Below, piece after piece: positions 502 to 24,769 of a stretch of DNA of 64,000 nucleotides. Source of the stretch: Octopus vulgaris (Eukaryota); NCBI GenBank assembly GCA_951406725.2, contig OX597840.1, forward strand, positions 38,192,001 to 38,256,000, read 5' to 3'. Each line of letters opens with the position of its first letter. The stretch's first letter is position 1. The position numbers and the translations under genes are program-made. The notes beneath the pieces are model-generated. The model searched no databases, was not told the DNA's origin, and saw only the letters and a program-made list of their open reading frames with translations.

Positions 502-1200
502 TATGTACATATATAAACATACTTGTATTCTTATATACTAATACATATTGTGTGTCTTTATATACAGATACGTATGTGTGTAAATACGCATATATATGTA
601 TTTATATATGTATATTTATATACATATGTATGTATGTATATACATACATATATTTGTATACATACATATGTATGTATATTAATATATATATATATATATG
701 CATATATGAATGTATATGTATATATTCACGTATATAGGAATAGTAAACGTATGATTTAATAATGTATAGTGTGAGTTTCCGGTGTGAAACCGCCAACAGT
801 ACATACAACATTGACCGTTGTTTTTATACAGCAGCACAACGACGTAGATCTTATGTAGATTATGCATTTTATGTTAATGTGGATTTTATGCAAATGTGGA
901 TTTCATGTATATTCAAATTTTATGTAGATACGAATTATATTGAGGTGCGTATTTTCTGCATAACATATGTTCGTGTTTTGTATTTGTATATTTGTTTTTC
1001 TTAATAATGATCTGATCCTCTAACCAAAAGTGCTTCTCTGAAATTTGACCCCTAAATAGTGAAATATGAATAAATAGATACTTTTATCTAAATGCATATA
1101 TTAGTATACACACCTCGTTACGCTGACATATATTGAGAAGCAAAAACAATTATTAGCATCGGTTTAAATACGGTCGACGTGTGTATCTATAAAATGTAGA

Positions 1201-1286
1201 GCAGCCGAAGATTGCTCTACATTTTAAAAGTGATGTAATATTTGCATTGTTCAATTAAATGGAGTCGTATCAAACGATCGTACTGC
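1201..1286 (+). ncRNA. Degenerate hammerhead with long stem II (family X)
   Basis: GCAG|CCGAAGA|~60 nt|CAAA (G12C)-CGAUCG-UA|CUGC; 3' flank homologous to 17700-17820 and 37800-37925. Confidence 0.55.
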
Positions 1287-5352: not shown

Positions 5353-5463
5353 TATTTATATACACACACTTATTATAGTTCTATGTTTAAGAGATGAGGA
5401 ATAATGAACATTCTTTACGTTATTTATATTCAACAGATATTTGTCTTCATCTTGTTTGTTATT

Positions 5464-5509
5464 AACACAACGTTTCCACTGATATACCATCCAGCCTTCA
5501 TCAGGTGTC
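5464..5509 (-). ncRNA. Minimal hammerhead in PLE-derived short element (5375-5540)
   Basis: Minus strand: GACAC|CUGAUGA|aggcug..cagug|GAAACGUU|GUGUU. Confidence 0.75.
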
Positions 5510-19239: not shown

Positions 19240-20070
19240 CATACATATATGAGTGTGTGTGTGCGTGTATGGAACCGTATGTATATATAGATATATGCAT
19301 ATATACGTACGATACACACGTATATATATATATATATATACATTCTTTTTATTTCTATCTATATAAATTTATATTGTTATTTTGTAATTCGCTCTCTGCC
19401 CTTTCTTCGTTTATAACCTTATATATTCTATCCAACGCATTTACATCTTTGCTTATTAAAAATGATTGACATCAACAAAAATTTAATATCTTCCAACATA
19501 ATTCAAGCATCGGGAATTTGTTATGCGTGCGTCCTTGGCTTCCATCATATATTTTGTATTCAAACATTTACTGTCTCTTCCTAACGATTTTCGCTCATCT
19601 CATACTCAAAATTCATGACATGGACGTCTTTATAAACACCAAATATCTCAGAAAGATTTGAAAATTAATTTACAATATGAAGGTGCCGTGCAGAGCCGAA
19701 GATTTCAGAAGTTCGCTTCACAACCGAGCATTCCAGCTAATTGTATGCTGCACAAGGTGATTATGTTTAATGTTTCTCCGGGACGTGAATGGAATTTGGT
19801 AATTTAGTTGCTAGAATTTTCAAAATCTTGTAAAACAGCTCTCTCTCTCTCTCTTTCTTTCCCTTTCAGTCTCTCTTCCCATCTCTCCATTCCTCCCTCT
19901 CTCTCACTATGTATATATATATTTATATATACATATATATATATATATAAAAATATAAAAATCTCTGACAAAGGATATTTACAACATTTCTAAAAATAAC
20001 CCAACAATTGCTGCTTCGGCCAGGGTCAAGATACAGGACTCTTGACCTGTCCAACAAAGCGTGATGCCTA

Positions 20071-20186
20071 AACCAATCAGCTCAACCAACCAATCAGCTT
20101 AAGTAATTGAGTGATACTACACACTGATTGGTCAGAATACAGTTTGCAAAACCTAGCACTCTGGAGCCTACCCAGCTGTATTTATA
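20071..20186 (+). promoter_or_regulatory. Putative Pol II promoter in pLTR: three CCAAT boxes plus TATA-like box (copy at +4271)
   Basis: CCAATCAG at 20073 and 20090, inverted CTGATTGG at 20124-20131, TATTTATA at 20179-20186. Confidence 0.6.
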
Positions 20187-20249
20187 GCACAGAATCACTC
20201 ATCTTGCTACAGTCAAAAATTGTGAAGCATGACTGTCAACACTACTACA

Positions 20250-20294
20250 TGAACCCGAAGATTGCAGAATTCAATGCATGAAAGTACTAGTTCA
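20250..20294 (+). ncRNA. Minimal type I hammerhead ribozyme (U4C core variant) in 5' pLTR
   Basis: UGAAC|CCGAAGA|u-UGCA-gaauucaa-UGCA-u|GAA-AGUACU (palindrome)-A|GUUCA. Confidence 0.8.
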
Positions 20295-20499
20295 ATCAGA
20301 ATGAATATTTAACATTCTACTATTTCATTTTATTTTACTCAATTATAATATATTATCTTATAATATATCATTATAAGATTGTAAATAAAACGTGAAAATC
20401 AGACAAGGTTGGAATTCTTTTTATTAATATATTCTTCTATACACAATCACACACACCCATATATATATATATCTATATTCCTATTGTGTATATGCCAAC

Positions 20500-21792
20500 A
20501 TGTCTGGAAAGCAACAAACAAAATTAACAGAATCCGAAAGAATTCTAATGGAAATTTCATCGAAATTATCAACACTCATCACGATGATTGACACACAATC
20601 CTCTATTTTAAAGGAAATAGAAAAACAGTCTACAGACGGAAAACTTGGAAATGAACACATAAACTCTGAAATTAAGAATTTAGCTGAAATGATACCAACA
20701 ATTATAAAATCTACAAGAGAAAGCCTACCACAACCTCCTTGGATGTCAGAAATAAACGAAAGAAATCTGGAAAAAGAGGCACACCGAAAAAGAGAAGAGA
20801 TACAGAAGACATGGAAAAAACTCCTTAACATAAGAAAACAAAACTTCTGGAAGGCATATAAATGCGAAAAATATGCTGAAATACATTCGAAATGGATATC
20901 TTTAGCGGCACCCATACTTCCTCGGAAGTACCTAATTAAAGAAATTGCAGGAGAACCAGAGGAAGAAACTAAACTTCGATGGGACCTTAGTTTGATAAAA
21001 TTCAGGACCGACATCTCCATTACCCTGTCTAAACAATCCCGCTACAAAGCCAAATACGAAGCTATCGATGATCAAATCAGAGATGAAATATCCAAACTAA
21101 CGACCGGCAATATAGCAGAAAAAATGCGAGAACTATGGATCAGAGATATCTCAAAAGAAGAAAGCAGATCAAGAAAGTTTTGGCAGCGGAAACAATTATT
21201 TCTCGACAAATATGCTACAAATTACGGTAAAGACACCAGAACTCCGAGAAATAGCATTAAAAGTGGACAACCTCACCAACGCAACATACACCAGAACACG
21301 TGGCAACATGAACACCCGTTTCACCACGAATCGAAGACGAACTACGGTAAGAACTCTTCCCATTTTGTATGCAAACACCCTAATGCACACAACATGAACA
21401 AAAATCACAAACAAAATAGATATTGTTTTGAACAAACCATTAGCAGTAGAGATAACAGGAGATCATTTTCAAGACCTCAACAGAGATTACCCACAAGAAA
21501 CTGGACAAAAAACCGATCTAGATCTAGAAGTAAACCCAGATCATTTCTCCAGGTGGTTAAAAACAATGCTAACAAGAAATTGAAAAGTAGCATACATAAT
21601 ACCAAAAACAAGACAGAAAACATAACGAAACCAAGTAAAGTACCACAACCAAAACGCAAAATTCATCAAGCAAACATCAACAGGAATATAAATCATAACC
21701 AGAAAAAAATCCATTTTTTTACGTCAGGACAACAAACACCGGAGAAAGAAAAAATCCAAGAGGAAACATACCCCAAACAACTGAACGTATAG
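20500..21792 (+). CDS. PLE ORF1, 430 aa: helical/coiled-coil-like N-half, basic low-complexity RS-containing C-half
   Basis: Long complex ORF starting (ccaacATG) just after the 5' pLTR; K/E/L-rich N-half; RSRSRSKPR and K/R/N/Q-rich C-half. Confidence 0.85.
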   Translation: MSGKQQTKLTESERILMEISSKLSTLITMIDTQSSILKEIEKQSTDGKLGNEHINSEIKNLAEMIPTIIKSTRESLPQPPWMSEINERNLEKEAHRKREEIQKTWKKLLNIRKQNFWKAYKCEKYAEIHSKWISLAAPILPRKYLIKEIAGEPEEETKLRWDLSLIKFRTDISITLSKQSRYKAKYEAIDDQIRDEISKLTTGNIAEKMRELWIRDISKEESRSRKFWQRKQLFLDKYATNYGKDTRTPRNSIKSGQPHQRNIHQNTWQHEHPFHHESKTNYGKNSSHFVCKHPNAHNMNKNHKQNRYCFEQTISSRDNRRSFSRPQQRLPTRNWTKNRSRSRSKPRSFLQVVKNNANKKLKSSIHNTKNKTENITKPSKVPQPKRKIHQANINRNINHNQKKIHFFTSGQQTPEKEKIQEETYPKQLNV

Positions 21793-24026
21793 ATCCTAAA
21801 ATAATTAATTTATCAAAAAGAGATCTTGACAATGATGAAATCCAACTTCTGTCAAAAGGACTGAAATTCACACCTACACCAACAGCCAACCACCAAGAAT
21901 TAAAGGAGGATATCCAAAAATTCTGTCGAAAATTACGACTTGTAGAATTCTTCGCTAACAAAAGTAATGAGATTGATGAATCCCTAGTAAGGAATAAATC
22001 AAATTTCACCCCACCAAAAGGAAGAAATAACTACCTTGACCAATACATTGATATCCTGTCTAAATTTCCCCTTAGACGCAATACCAATGTTAGGCCAAAC
22101 ATTAGCAAATCAGAGATGTCTGCATGTAAACGTATACAAAACGATCAAACAATAATAATTAAACAAGCAGATAAAGGTGGTGCAATTGTTATTATGGATA
22201 CCGAATACTATAAGGATTTGGTTGAAGACCAACTGAAGGATACAACCTTCTATTGTGAAATACCCGCAAATATAGACCACCACATCATGAAAAAGATCAA
22301 CAACCTGATTTCAACACACCACAACTCACTTACGGATAATGAAAAAGACTACATCACCAATTTTGAACCAAAACCCAGCAACTTCTACGGCTTACCAAAA
22401 ATACACAAATCAAAAAACATTCAACAGGCAGTAAAAGAACAAGAAAGTGAGTACATAAAATTATTACATCCAAAAGACCTAAAACTTAGACCTATTATAG
22501 CTGGTCCAGCATGCCCTACACACCGTCTAAGCAATTTTATTGACATTGTTTTGAAACCACTATGTACTTACATACCGAGTTTCATCAGGGATGACATCGA
22601 CTTCCTGTCCCATCTTCCCAAAACAACAGAAACAAATTCAGTTTTGCTAAGTTTTGATGTGGTAAGCCTCTACACCAATATTCCACACGATTTAGGAATA
22701 AAGGCGATTAAATACTGGTTAGAAAAACATAGAGAAGTGATTCCCAGCAGATTCACAGTGCCATTTATATTAGACACAGTCAAACTTATTCTAGAAAATA
22801 ACACATTCTTCTTCAATGGAAAGAATTACATCCAAATTAGAGGCACGGCGATGGGAACGAGGTTTGCTCCCGTTTACGCCAACTCTGTAATGGGATACTT
22901 AGAAGAACAACTCTACCAAGAGGTGGAGGTAAACTATGGCACTGGATTTAGAAAGTATATTGAAAAGGCATGGAAGAGATACCTAGACGACTGTTTCATA
23001 ATCTGGACAGAATCTCTAAATACTCTGGAAGAGTTCAATATCCTCCTGAACAACCTACACCCATCTCTCAAATTTACAAAGGAGATGAGTAGTACCAAAT
23101 TACCATTCCTGGATATAATGGTAATTAAAAAAGACACCACCATCACCACAGATATATACTATAAACACACAGACACACATCCATACCTAAATTTTAAGTC
23201 GTGCCATCCACCACATACAAAACGTAACATCCCATACTGCCTAGCCAGAAGAATTTGTACTATTGTAGAAGATGCAAATATCAGGAACAAACGCCTAATA
23301 GAACTAAGAGAATTTTTGCTCAAACAAAAATACCCATCTCTACTTATAGAAAATGGCATACAGCGGGCTATAAAAATACCTATACAACAACTTAGGACAA
23401 CCCAAGGAAGAGGAAAACAAGAACAAGTCATACCATTCATAGTGACCCACAACCCATGTCACCAGAATATCTTCAACATTGCCAAAGCAAACCTTCCAAT
23501 CATTGCCCAAAGTAATGAATTAAAAGACATAATCAAGGATCGAGCTATGGTGCTTAGTAAAAGACAGCCTAAAAACTTGAAAACATTACTAACAAAGGCA
23601 AAATTTGACCTCAGCAACAAAGACCAAACATTCACGGTATTTAAATGCAATGATAGCCGATGTGGCACATGCCAATTCATACATACCGGTCAATATATAA
23701 ACACAAAAACCGGGAAAATATTCACAAACGCGAATATGAACTGCAAAAGCAGAAATTTAATTTACTGCATCAAATGCCCAAATTGTGAAGAAATATATGT
23801 AGGTCAGACGGGAAACGCACTATTAGAACGCTCACGTGTACACCGGCAACAGATTAGAGACCCAGAGGTCCGTCAGATACCTTTGAGTAACAACCTAGCA
23901 ACATGTGGTCGGAAAATATATATAATATTTCCATTCTACAAATTACACAGCCCAAGTGAAATCGAGAGGAAAATCAGAGAAAAGAATTTTATTGATAAAT
24001 TCGAACCCAAGCTAAATAAGCAATAA
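21699..24026 (+). CDS. PLE ORF2: reverse transcriptase, Cys-rich linker, GIY-YIG endonuclease (frame open from 21699; first ATG 22116)
   Basis: KIINLS..LLSKGLKFTP upstream of the first ATG; KQADKGGAIV, FYGLPKIHK, LRPII, SFDVVSLYTNIP, GTAMGTRFAP, RYLDDCF, LPFLD, SCHPPH; CNDSRCGTC; NLIYCIKCPNCEEIYVGQT..R..H..E..N. Confidence 0.95.
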   Translation, partial: PEKNPFFYVRTTNTGERKNPRGNIPQTTERIDPKIINLSKRDLDNDEIQLLSKGLKFTPTPTANHQELKEDIQKFCRKLRLVEFFANKSNEIDESLVRNKSNFTPPKGRNNYLDQYIDILSKFPLRRNTNVRPNISKSEMSACKRIQNDQTIIIKQADKGGAIVIMDTEYYKDLVEDQLKDTTFYCEIPANIDHHIMKKINNLISTHHNSLTDNEKDYITNFEPKPSNFYGLPKIHKSKNIQQAVKEQESEYIKLLHPKDLKLRPIIAGPACPTHRLSNFIDIVLKPLCTYIPSFIRDDIDFLSHLPKTTETNSVLLSFDVVSLYTNIPHDLGIKAIKYWLEKHREVIPSRFTVPFILDTVKLILENNTFFFNGKNYIQIRGTAMGTRFAPVYANSVMGYLEEQLYQEVEVNYGTGFRKYIEKAWKRYLDDCFIIWTESLNTLEEFNILLNNLHPSLKFTKEMSSTKLPFLDIMVIKKDTTITTDIYYKHTDTHPYLNFKSCHPPHTKRNIPYCLARRICTIVEDANIRNKRLIELREFLLKQKYPSLLIENGIQRAIKIPIQQLRTTQGRGKQEQVIPFIVTHNPCHQNIFNIAKANLPIIAQSNELKDIIKDRAMVLSKRQPKNLKTLLTKAKFDLSNKDQTFTVFKCNDSRCGTCQFIHTGQYINTKTGKIFTNANMNCKSRNLIYCIKCPNCEEIYVGQTGNALLERSRVHRQQIRDPEVRQIPLSNNLATCGRKIYIIFPFYKLHSPSEIERKIREKNFIDKFEPKLNKQ

Positions 24027-24215
24027 TAATAATACTTAGCGATATTACTTCCACTGCTACGACCATGACCACTAACAACAACAACAATACTAAAGGTGAT
24101 CAAGACGAAGATAGCAGGAAAATTATCTTATTTAGGGTTAAAAGTTATATTGCCACCACCATCACCACTAGCAACAATAATTAAGGTGCTGACAATGATG
24201 ATGATGACAATTGAA

Positions 24216-24747
24216 ATATAAAAATATAAAAATCTCTGACAAAGGATATTTACAACATTTCTAAAAATAACCCAACAATTGCTGCTTCGGCCAGGGTCAA
24301 GATACAGGACTCTTGACCTGTCCAACAAAGCGTGATGCCTAAACCAATCAGCTCAACCAACCAATCAGCTTAAGTAATTGAGTGATACTACACACTGATT
24401 GGTCAGAATACAGTTTGCAAAACCTAGCACTCTGGAGCCTACCCAGCTGTATTTATAGCACAGAATCACTCATCTTGCTACAGTCAAAAATTGTGAAGCA
24501 TGACTGTCAACACTACTACATGAACCCGAAGATTGCAGAATTCAATGCATGAAAGTACTAGTTCAATCAGAATGAATATTTAACATTCTACTATTTCATT
24601 TTATTTTACTCAATTATAATATATTATCTTATAATATATCATTATAAGATTGTAAATAAAACGTGAAAATCAGACAAGGTTGGAATTCTTTTTATTAATA
24701 TATTCTTCTATACACAATCACACACACCCATATATATATATCTATAT
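24216..24747 (+). repeat. 3' pseudo-LTR of PLE
   Basis: Direct copy of 19945-20478, runs into (TA)n. Confidence 0.95.
24521..24565 (+). ncRNA. Minimal type I hammerhead ribozyme (U4C core variant) in 3' pLTR
   Basis: Identical to 20250-20294. Confidence 0.8.
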
Positions 24748-24769
24748 ATATATACATATACATACATTT

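What the first reader, a model, noticed from the sequence alone, without database searches (positions are those of the whole stretch)
20250..24565. Paired U4C hammerheads 4271 nt apart could excise a unit-length (possibly circular) PLE RNA
Seen: identical minimal HHRs with a palindromic AGUACU stem III in both pLTRs, both downstream of the TATA-like box. The core is CCGAAGA (U4C) with a U-U at the base of stem II. The same CCGAAGA core occurs in an unrelated motif at 1205. Established: minimal PLE HHRs cleave mainly as dimers through palindromic stem III, and HHR-flanked retrozymes circularise. Inference: the two pLTR copies could dimerise in cis and release a 4271-nt uncapped RNA containing both ORFs. 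U4C may slow cleavage enough to allow translation.
Basis: partly seen in the sequence, partly recalled or inferred. Interest (0 to 1): 0.7.

Follow-up and report, generated by a model that had tools for sequence, protein, structure and literature searches.

The report
Variant hammerhead in young Penelope retrotransposon
This is one copy of a young, very abundant jumping gene whose end repeats carry a predicted self-cutting RNA with an unusual letter, and the way its copies are built shows copying well past one unit length, likely from an RNA circle as proposed in 2014, though neither cutting nor the circle has been shown.

Summary
In detail: identical minimal type-I hammerheads (core CCGAAGA, U-U at stem II base, palindromic AGUACU) lie 4271 nt apart in the pLTRs of a two-ORF Neptune-like Penelope element. 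The 1205 motif is only a hairpin. U4C is not copy-specific: 1119 of 1131 matches have C4. It is derived: 88 of 100 listed copies of an older sister subfamily have U4. The excision-and-circle idea is already published (PMC4209133). New indirect support: 26 of 31 full-length passes run on past the transcription start, none of 32 stops at the cut site, and units within arrays are nearly identical, so the template behaved as a seamless more-than-unit RNA. Against obligatory cutting: 17 of 96 sampled copies start at the transcription start and span the site uncut; at most two copies begin at the cut. 'U4C allows translation' has no support. Extras: a splice donor inside stem III joins host exons, and a conserved slippery site likely joins ORF1 to the RT. 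New variant of a known kind.

The parts
19945..20478 (+). 5' pLTR (5'-truncated second pass of the unit plus tail)
   Evidence: exact repeat 19945-20470 = 24216-24741; family 3' end at 20478
20073..20131 (+). three CCAAT-type boxes (20073, 20090, reversed 20127); promoter role inferred
   Evidence: read from sequence
20179..20186 (+). TATA-like box TATTTATA
   Evidence: sequence; 30 nt before the 5'-end pile-up
20208..20213 (+). likely transcription start
   Evidence: 17 of 96 sampled copies begin at 20205-20220; RNA-like contigs begin at 20209 in runs X10, X13, X14
20250..20294 (+). minimal type-I hammerhead 1: core 20255-20261 with C4 at 20256, U-U 20262/20279, stem III palindrome 20283-20288, predicted cut 20289|20290
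   Evidence: C4 in 1119 of 1131 matches
20283..20289 (+). 5' splice donor AAA|GUACUA inside stem III; the predicted cut lies 6 nt into the intron
   Evidence: two contigs (runs X10, X18) leave the element after 20283 and go on into host sequence preceded by pyrimidine tract + CAG
20423..20478 (+). tail: two family 3' ends (likely RT start sites) at 20432 and 20478, both AT-rich and joined to (TA)n
   Evidence: 3' ends exactly at 20432 in 29 and at 20478 in 37 of 96 copies
20500..21792 (+). ORF1, 430 aa, no Pfam match
   Evidence: 4 relatives at 41-53% identity
21714..21720 (+). slippery heptamer U_UUU_UUU in the ORF1/ORF2 overlap; -1 frameshift predicted (1175-aa fusion)
   Evidence: 7 T in 99 of 100 listed of 182 copies; T_TTT_TTA/G in 6 of 8 scorable close relatives; length
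21699..24026 (+). ORF2: RT, CX4CxxC linker, GIY-YIG endonuclease; first Met only at residue 140; this copy has Asn at the last position of the CCHH motif
   Evidence: four RNA-like runs read another base at 23892
24216..24749 (+). 3' pLTR with tail
24521..24565 (+). minimal hammerhead 2, identical to 1; predicted cut 24560|24561
19908..19944 (.). (TA)n target, left flank (right flank 24750-24765); no target duplication discernible

Best explanation
This is a recent insertion of a young, abundant Neptune-like Penelope retrotransposon whose pLTR carries a minimal hammerhead with a subfamily-wide U4C change, and whose long copies were likely written from a seamless more-than-unit template, most likely a 4271-nt RNA circle that would form when the two hammerheads pair and cut. 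Steps: (1) transcription likely starts at 20209, behind a TATA box (inferred from copy ends and contigs). (2) Many RNAs stay uncut: copies running from the tail to 20209 span the site (shown). (3) ORF1 is translated, and the RT-endonuclease is likely made by a -1 frameshift at 21714-21720 (conservation shown, slippage inferred). (4) In a minority of RNAs two hammerheads would pair through AGUACU, probably helped by protein, cut, and be ligated into a circle (inferred, untested). (5) The enzyme nicks (TA)n and likely primes inside the RNA at 20432 or 20478 (copy ends shown; mechanism as in PMC11167929). On a circle it would run on past the transcription start, rebuild the upstream promoter and give tandem or head-to-head arrays. 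U4C most likely lowers an already slow rate without being needed for anything.
For: Promoter lies upstream of the start, so a start-to-tail RNA cannot rebuild it. Of 31 full-length passes (29 insertions) reaching the 5' hammerhead, 26 run past the start, 2 stop at 20205-20220 and 3 at 20221-20262 (13 of 30 loci; 18 of 60 loci); p = 2e-7 against even 50% stopping. None of 32 passes stops at 20288-20290. Loss rate before the start (60 to 18 copies over 1518 nt) and after it (14 to 5 over 1125 nt) is similar, about 8-9e-4 per nt (my arithmetic). Units within arrays differ by 0 and 1 substitutions, between loci by 6-20. One insertion holds 3.1 + 2.9 units head to head; its 5 full units differ by 0-4, from other loci by 7-17. 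Locus-specific variants sit in both pLTRs (window 20338C, L045 20061A, L043 12-nt deletion). Cofold of two hammerheads gives the double-hammerhead pairing, -17.0 against 2 x -5.3 kcal/mol. U4C and U10.1-U11.1 each occur in natural hammerheads that retain activity (PMC3088659). The circle model is proposed in PMC4209133.
Against: No cleavage, RNA end or circle was observed; all RNA data were contigs only guessed to be RNA. Only one copy starts exactly at 20290 (L059) and one at 20288 (L091) among 10 candidates, against roughly 2 per position expected from neighbouring truncations. One unit of the large array differs from its neighbours at two sites (20903, 21435), where it has the commoner alleles, which suggests a switch between RNA molecules or later conversion. 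One copy's match ends at 20289 but resumes after a replaced stretch (L107), so it is no clean cut end. For the anole element the hammerhead was dispensable for insertion in vitro and no reads ended at its cut site (PMC11167929). Two core deviations together (U4C, U-U) on a minimal motif may leave no useful activity; U4C 'considerably decreases activity in vitro' (PMC3088659).
Confidence: 0.45

Rival explanations
1. The hammerhead is nearly dead or idle in this subfamily. More-than-unit copies arise because the RT, on reaching the capped 5' end of an uncut RNA, jumps to the repeated pLTR at the 3' end of the same or another RNA, as in LTR strong-stop transfer.
For: Copies span the cut site uncut; no cut-site ends. 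A slight excess of second-pass stops at the start (2 of 28 in 16 nt, about 0.4 expected). A mosaic unit in the large array. Hammerhead not needed for insertion in vitro (PMC11167929). Naiads amplify without canonical hammerheads (PMC8557442 passages).
Against: The jump would have to succeed about 90% of the time, up to three times in a row on each arm. The motif's palindrome and stems are intact in both subfamilies, though the two are too close (about 7-10% apart) to show long-term selection.
Confidence: 0.3
2. Long copies come from read-through transcripts of existing tandem arrays or of host introns; no circle and no jump.
For: Arrays of 2-3 units exist. Units in a young array would also be near-identical.
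Against: An n-unit parent predicts about 1/n stops at the start; 2 of 31 would need arrays far longer than any listed. Loci carry many different haplotypes, so there is no single master. Second-pass 5' ends do not recur. Each round would shorten the array, so something must regenerate length.
Confidence: 0.15
3. U4C was selected because slower cutting keeps capped mRNA for translation, or shifts the balance between cutting and splicing at the overlapping donor.
For: C4 marks the youngest and larger burst: 1119 C4 matches with median 0% divergence from their own majority, against 358 sister matches at 1.6%. The donor overlaps stem III.
Against: The U4 subfamily also amplified and also left uncut copies. 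C4 travels with three other changes, so hitch-hiking suffices. Canonical minimal hammerheads are already very slow (PMC4209133). Four upstream AUGs lie 5' of the cut, and self-cleavage can promote cap-independent translation (PMC13725137, abstract), so cutting need not hurt translation.
Confidence: 0.1

Closest known systems
Minimal hammerheads of metazoan PLE pLTRs (Cervera and de la Pena 2014, PMC4209133; parts 1-2 of 4 read, one supplement file searched)
   Same: type-I minimal motif in both pLTRs, palindromic stem III, dimer requirement, proposed excision, ligation to a circle and more-than-unit reverse transcription
   Different: core has C4 and a U-U closing pair instead of U4 and G10.1-C11.1; a used splice donor lies in stem III (in D. 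virilis the intron's 3' end abuts helix I)
Neptune clade of EN+ PLEs (Craig et al. 2021, PMC8557442; Introduction, passages, supplement part 54; Fig. 1 itself not seen)
   Same: RT, CX2-5CxxC linker with long spacer, C-terminal GIY-YIG, (TA)n targets, tandem and inverted insertions
   Different: canonical EN+ PLEs are described as single-ORF; this family has two ORFs in -1 overlap. The Fig. 1 legend mentions an ORF1 separated by a frameshift with a pseudoknot without naming the clade; no such structure is predicted here
PAc, Poseidon of Anolis (Frangieh et al. 2024, PMC11167929; parts 1-2 of 4 read)
   Same: two internal RT start sites downstream of the hammerhead (tail), AT-rich targets, extension on both strands
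   Different: other clade, single ORF whose start lies inside the hammerhead; here the hammerhead is 205 nt upstream of ORF1
Natural U4C and U10.1-U11.1 hammerheads (Perreault et al. 2011, PMC3088659; section 8 and passages)
   Same: each deviation has been seen in nature with residual activity
   Different: there in viroid or full-length motifs with tertiary contacts; here both together in a minimal dimer-type motif fixed in over 1000 copies
Metazoan non-LTR retrozymes (bioRxiv 10.64898/2026.07.22.740005, part 1 of 5 read; PMC7229834 search listing only)
   Same: type-I hammerhead per unit, tandem copies, circular RNA model
   Different: non-coding and short; this element is autonomous, 4271 nt, and no circle is shown

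Membership tests
EN+ Penelope-like element | direct pLTRs from partial tandem structure | tested here: met
EN+ Penelope-like element | RT plus C-terminal GIY-YIG endonuclease | tested here: met
   GIY-YIG above Pfam cut-off, RVT_1 E 2e-6 just below it; 593 relatives at E<=1e-30
EN+ Penelope-like element | CCHH motif in the endonuclease | tested here: met
   C..C between GIY and YIG and first H present; last H is Asn in this copy, but four RNA-like runs read the base giving His and relatives have H
EN+ Penelope-like element | tail beyond the hammerhead and head-to-head inverted insertions | tested here: met
EN+ Penelope-like element | single ORF (canonical description) | tested here: not met
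   two ORFs in -1 overlap in 10 of 12 units compared, the other two broken; 99 of 100 listed junctions as in the window; hence filed as a two-ORF variant
Neptune clade | CX2-5CxxC linker with Neptune-type long spacer before GIY | tested here: met
   CNDSRCGTC at ORF2 residue 650, compared by eye with Fig. S2 rows
Neptune clade | (TA)n insertion preference | tested here: met
   3' junctions into (TA)n in most of 96 copies
Neptune clade | RT phylogeny with named Neptune references | not tested
   no full reference sequences were fetched; no tree built
Minimal type-I hammerhead | CUGANGA box | tested here: not met
   CCGAAGA in this subfamily; CUGAAGA in 88 of 100 listed sister copies
Minimal type-I hammerhead | GAAA box, A15.1-U16.1, H17, stems I and II | tested here: met
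Minimal type-I hammerhead | G10.1-C11.1 closing pair | tested here: not met
   U-U in both subfamilies
Minimal type-I hammerhead | palindromic stem III allowing a double hammerhead | tested here: met
   cofold pairs AGUACU with AGUACU; a prediction only
Minimal type-I hammerhead | self-cleavage | not testable with these tools
   only contigs were available
Retrozyme | short and non-coding | tested here: not met
   4271 nt with two ORFs
Retrozyme | accumulates as circular RNA | not testable with these tools
   the cyclic 4301-nt contig in run X1 arises from any repeat-flanked unit

The most novel reading that the evidence does not exclude
An autonomous animal retrotransposon that replicates through a 4271-nt protein-coding RNA circle made by a double hammerhead with two non-standard core positions, whose pairing palindrome is also a used splice donor, so each transcript either cuts and circularises or splices into host exons, while the RT is made by a -1 ribosomal frameshift.
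Probability: 0.3. Interest if true: 0.75.

Novelty: new variant of a known kind. Interest (0 to 1): 0.45.

Why it matters
What the hammerhead does in Penelope-like elements is still open: the circle model dates from 2014, and the one in vitro study found the ribozyme dispensable. This family makes the question testable. It has over 1000 near-identical copies, sequence held in RNA-like runs of several studies, a natural U4/C4 pair of sister subfamilies, and copy statistics that already require a seamless more-than-unit template. The donor inside stem III means solo pLTRs can act as first exons for host genes. The conserved -1 site would revise the single-ORF picture of endonuclease-bearing PLEs.

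Tried and rejected
DNA search of the genome with the 96-nt hammerhead region found nothing because common words are skipped; patterns were used instead. Rfam gave microsatellite noise; no hammerhead among the rows shown. Motif at 1205 and CCGAAGA at 19696, 62019, 63991: no hammerhead descriptor match. U4C as a private mutation: rejected. U4C as ancestral: rejected. ORF split as an error of this copy: rejected. In-frame fused copies: about 11 of 150 listed; 12 inspected units carry four different indels in A runs or nearby, so they are not one lineage. Splicing as the route to ORF2: no joint inside the element in 8 runs; by hand, the only leader AUG in frame with ORF2 via the AG at 21725-21726 meets a stop at 20279. 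Back-splicing at the stem III donor would not give a seamless circle (AA, not AG, precedes it). Cyclic contig in X1: uninformative. No RNA holder was on record as RNA. No pLTR was found in 150 kb upstream or 20 kb downstream of the C27 host exon in this assembly, so the source copy of that chimera is not located; it was not sought for the C20 exon. No stable stimulatory structure 3' of the slippery site (z -1.3 here; -2.2 to +1.0 in 7 relatives). No fused ORF1 relative of 754-2150 aa (weak evidence). ORF1 alignment found nothing in metagenomes. Papers not held: Lunse et al. on PLE hammerhead variants and the Terminon paper; they may already cover U4C, U-U or the frameshift. Searches for prior print: hammerhead+U4C gave 1 paper; PLE frameshift searches gave 0, 0, 1, 2 and 1 listed papers, none describing it for Neptune in the text I saw (the paper was seen as a listing only).
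Full report
Observation. The window holds a 4805-nt element, 19945-24749, in a (TA)n tract. Its ends are an exact 526-nt repeat at a spacing of 4271. Each repeat carries a minimal type-I hammerhead with core CCGAAGA, a U-U pair under a 4-bp stem II, GAAA, and the palindrome AGUACU before A17. Predicted cuts are 20289|20290 and 24560|24561. The stretch between them holds ORF1 (430 aa, no Pfam match) and ORF2 (RT and GIY-YIG). The CCGAAGA at 1205 is the loop of a plain hairpin without the other hammerhead boxes; 6 such 7-mers occur in the window, about 3.6 expected.

Family and the U4C change. A 38-nt pattern with position 4 free has 1131 matches in the genome and 0 for the reversed control; only 12 have another base, all T. 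Laying other runs showed a linked set of differences including T at 20256. A pattern for that sister form has 358 matches, and 88 of the 100 listed have U4. The sister differs at four positions in 100 nt and is older (median 1.6% against 0% from its own majority; 28 and 30 copies). The dominant contig of a run from another organism label has U4. So U4C is derived and fixed in the youngest subfamily; U-U is shared by both. Both deviations have natural precedent (PMC3088659, section 8 and passages).

Where copies begin and end. In 96 hammerhead copies from contig C1, 3' ends fall exactly at 20432 (29) or 20478 (37), with a few more near these or one or two units on, and run into (TA)n. These lie 143 and 189 nt downstream of the cut, like the two internal RT starts of the anole element (PMC11167929). 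5' ends pile up at 20205-20220 (17 of 96; by my sorting all among 84 first passes), 30 nt behind TATTTATA, and RNA-like contigs start at 20209. These short copies span the cut site, so their templates were uncut. Two patterns built to catch 5' ends at the cut gave 3 and 7 candidates genome-wide; one starts at 20290, one at 20288, the rest are local changes. Ten further sister-type candidates were point changes or, in one case, an inversion joint a few bases upstream; the non-A pattern was not run for the sister. There is no enrichment at the cut in either subfamily.

More-than-unit copying. The promoter-like boxes lie upstream of the start, so an RNA from start to tail cannot rebuild them. I followed copies that reach the ORF junction: 13 of 30 and 18 of 60 reach the 5' hammerhead. 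Of these 31 passes, 26 run past the start, 2 stop at it and 3 just before it. In one search the loci end only 11-27 nt beyond the start; longer loci confirm most. The 60 loci were picked among hits with an open ORF2 frame of about 775 aa, leaving out three close inverted pairs. None of 32 passes stops at the cut. The loss rate is similar before and after the start. Units within two arrays differ by 0 and 1 substitutions, against 6-20 between loci. One insertion on C23 has 3.1 and 2.9 units head to head; five full units differ by 0-4. The template therefore behaved as seamless. A circle explains this most simply, and hammerhead cutting plus ligation is the obvious way to make one; two copies cofold into the double-hammerhead pairing. 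This is the model of PMC4209133, repeated in PMC6765202. It is not proven. Efficient jumping between pLTRs gives the same DNA, and one C23 unit differs from its neighbours at two sites where it has the commoner alleles. The first-pass against second-pass difference in stopping at the start is not significant on its own (17/84 against 2/31, p 0.09). The cyclic contig of run X1 says nothing either way.

Translation argument. Nothing ties U4C to translation. The U4 sister amplified and left uncut start-to-tail copies (14 of 30). Canonical minimal hammerheads are already slow (PMC4209133). Four AUGs lie upstream of the cut, and cleavage can itself support cap-independent initiation (PMC13725137, abstract only).

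Splice donor in stem III. A contig of run X10 covers 20209-20283 and continues in other sequence; a contig of run X18 also leaves after 20283. Each continuation occurs once in the genome, directly after a pyrimidine tract and CAG. The donor is AAA|GUACUA, so the predicted cut is 6 nt into the intron, and splicing would destroy the ribozyme. This rests on 2 contigs in 8 runs laid; the parent pLTR of the first was not found nearby in this assembly. No splice inside the element was seen.

Two ORFs. ORF2's first Met is residue 140, after its conserved N-terminus. The overlap carries U_UUU_UUU in the ORF1 frame, unchanged in 99 of 100 listed copies. Three ORF1 relatives at 41-43% identity end as separate ORFs with IHFL at the same place; a fourth is a longer partial match. 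Among 80 metagenome loci, 9 at 44% identity or more had the RT N-terminus; one lacked upstream sequence, and 6 of the other 8 have an upstream ORF in -1 overlap with T_TTT_TTA or T_TTT_TTG in frame. One locus at 31% has it too. The heptamer occurs 0 times elsewhere in 2608 upstream codons. More distant loci mostly have a long in-frame N-terminus or other layouts. A -1 frameshift giving 1175 aa is likely (about 0.85); no stimulatory fold is predicted here, and the ORF1 stop lies 69 nt on, against 30 nt in four relatives. I found no description for Neptune in five searches, but the Fig. 1 legend of PMC8557442 mentions a frameshift-separated ORF1 without naming the clade, and I could not see the figure. 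Earlier notes of this scan report the same feature many times.

Classification. Endonuclease-bearing Penelope-like element, Neptune-like by linker and target (no tree). The host is an animal; the closest named RT relatives are from bivalves. This copy has Asn at the last CCHH position and may have a weakened endonuclease.

Verdict. The U4C tuning idea and the 1205 link do not hold up. New variant of a known kind; interest 0.45.

Noticed in passing
window 5463-5509, minus strand: Another minimal hammerhead with a canonical CUGAUGA core and ACGU palindrome beside an (ATT)n tract; probably a remnant of a different Penelope-like family.
   Followed up: no
window 1191-1225: Perfect 13-bp hairpin with a 7-nt loop (z -6.3); not a hammerhead; may be the end of another repeat.
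   Followed up: partly
window 23892: This copy has Asn at the last position of the endonuclease CCHH motif; four RNA-like runs read another base here.
   Followed up: partly
G000:C23:4574209-4599733 (L306-L308): Single head-to-head insertion of about six units; one unit is a mosaic at two sites and one hammerhead has C3U.
   Followed up: partly
L097:1501 and L185 (minus strand, about 1530): Host exons spliced to the pLTR first exon in runs X10 and X18; the genes were not identified.
   Followed up: partly
L309, L310, L311, L314, L306 and others: About 11 of 150 listed copies have ORF1 and ORF2 fused in frame through different small indels, mostly in A runs; slippage during copying or assembly error.
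   Followed up: partly
L328, L332, L334, L341: ORF1 stop lies exactly 30 nt after the slippery heptamer in 4 of 7 relatives, 69 nt in the window.
   Followed up: no
L408: Copy mixing young-subfamily alleles (C4, loop C) with a sister allele at 20306; intermediate or recombinant.
   Followed up: no
proteins P0010, P0013, P0026, P0072, P0097, P0115: Close RT relatives labelled as bacterial gill symbionts, on short contigs; likely host DNA in those assemblies.
   Followed up: no
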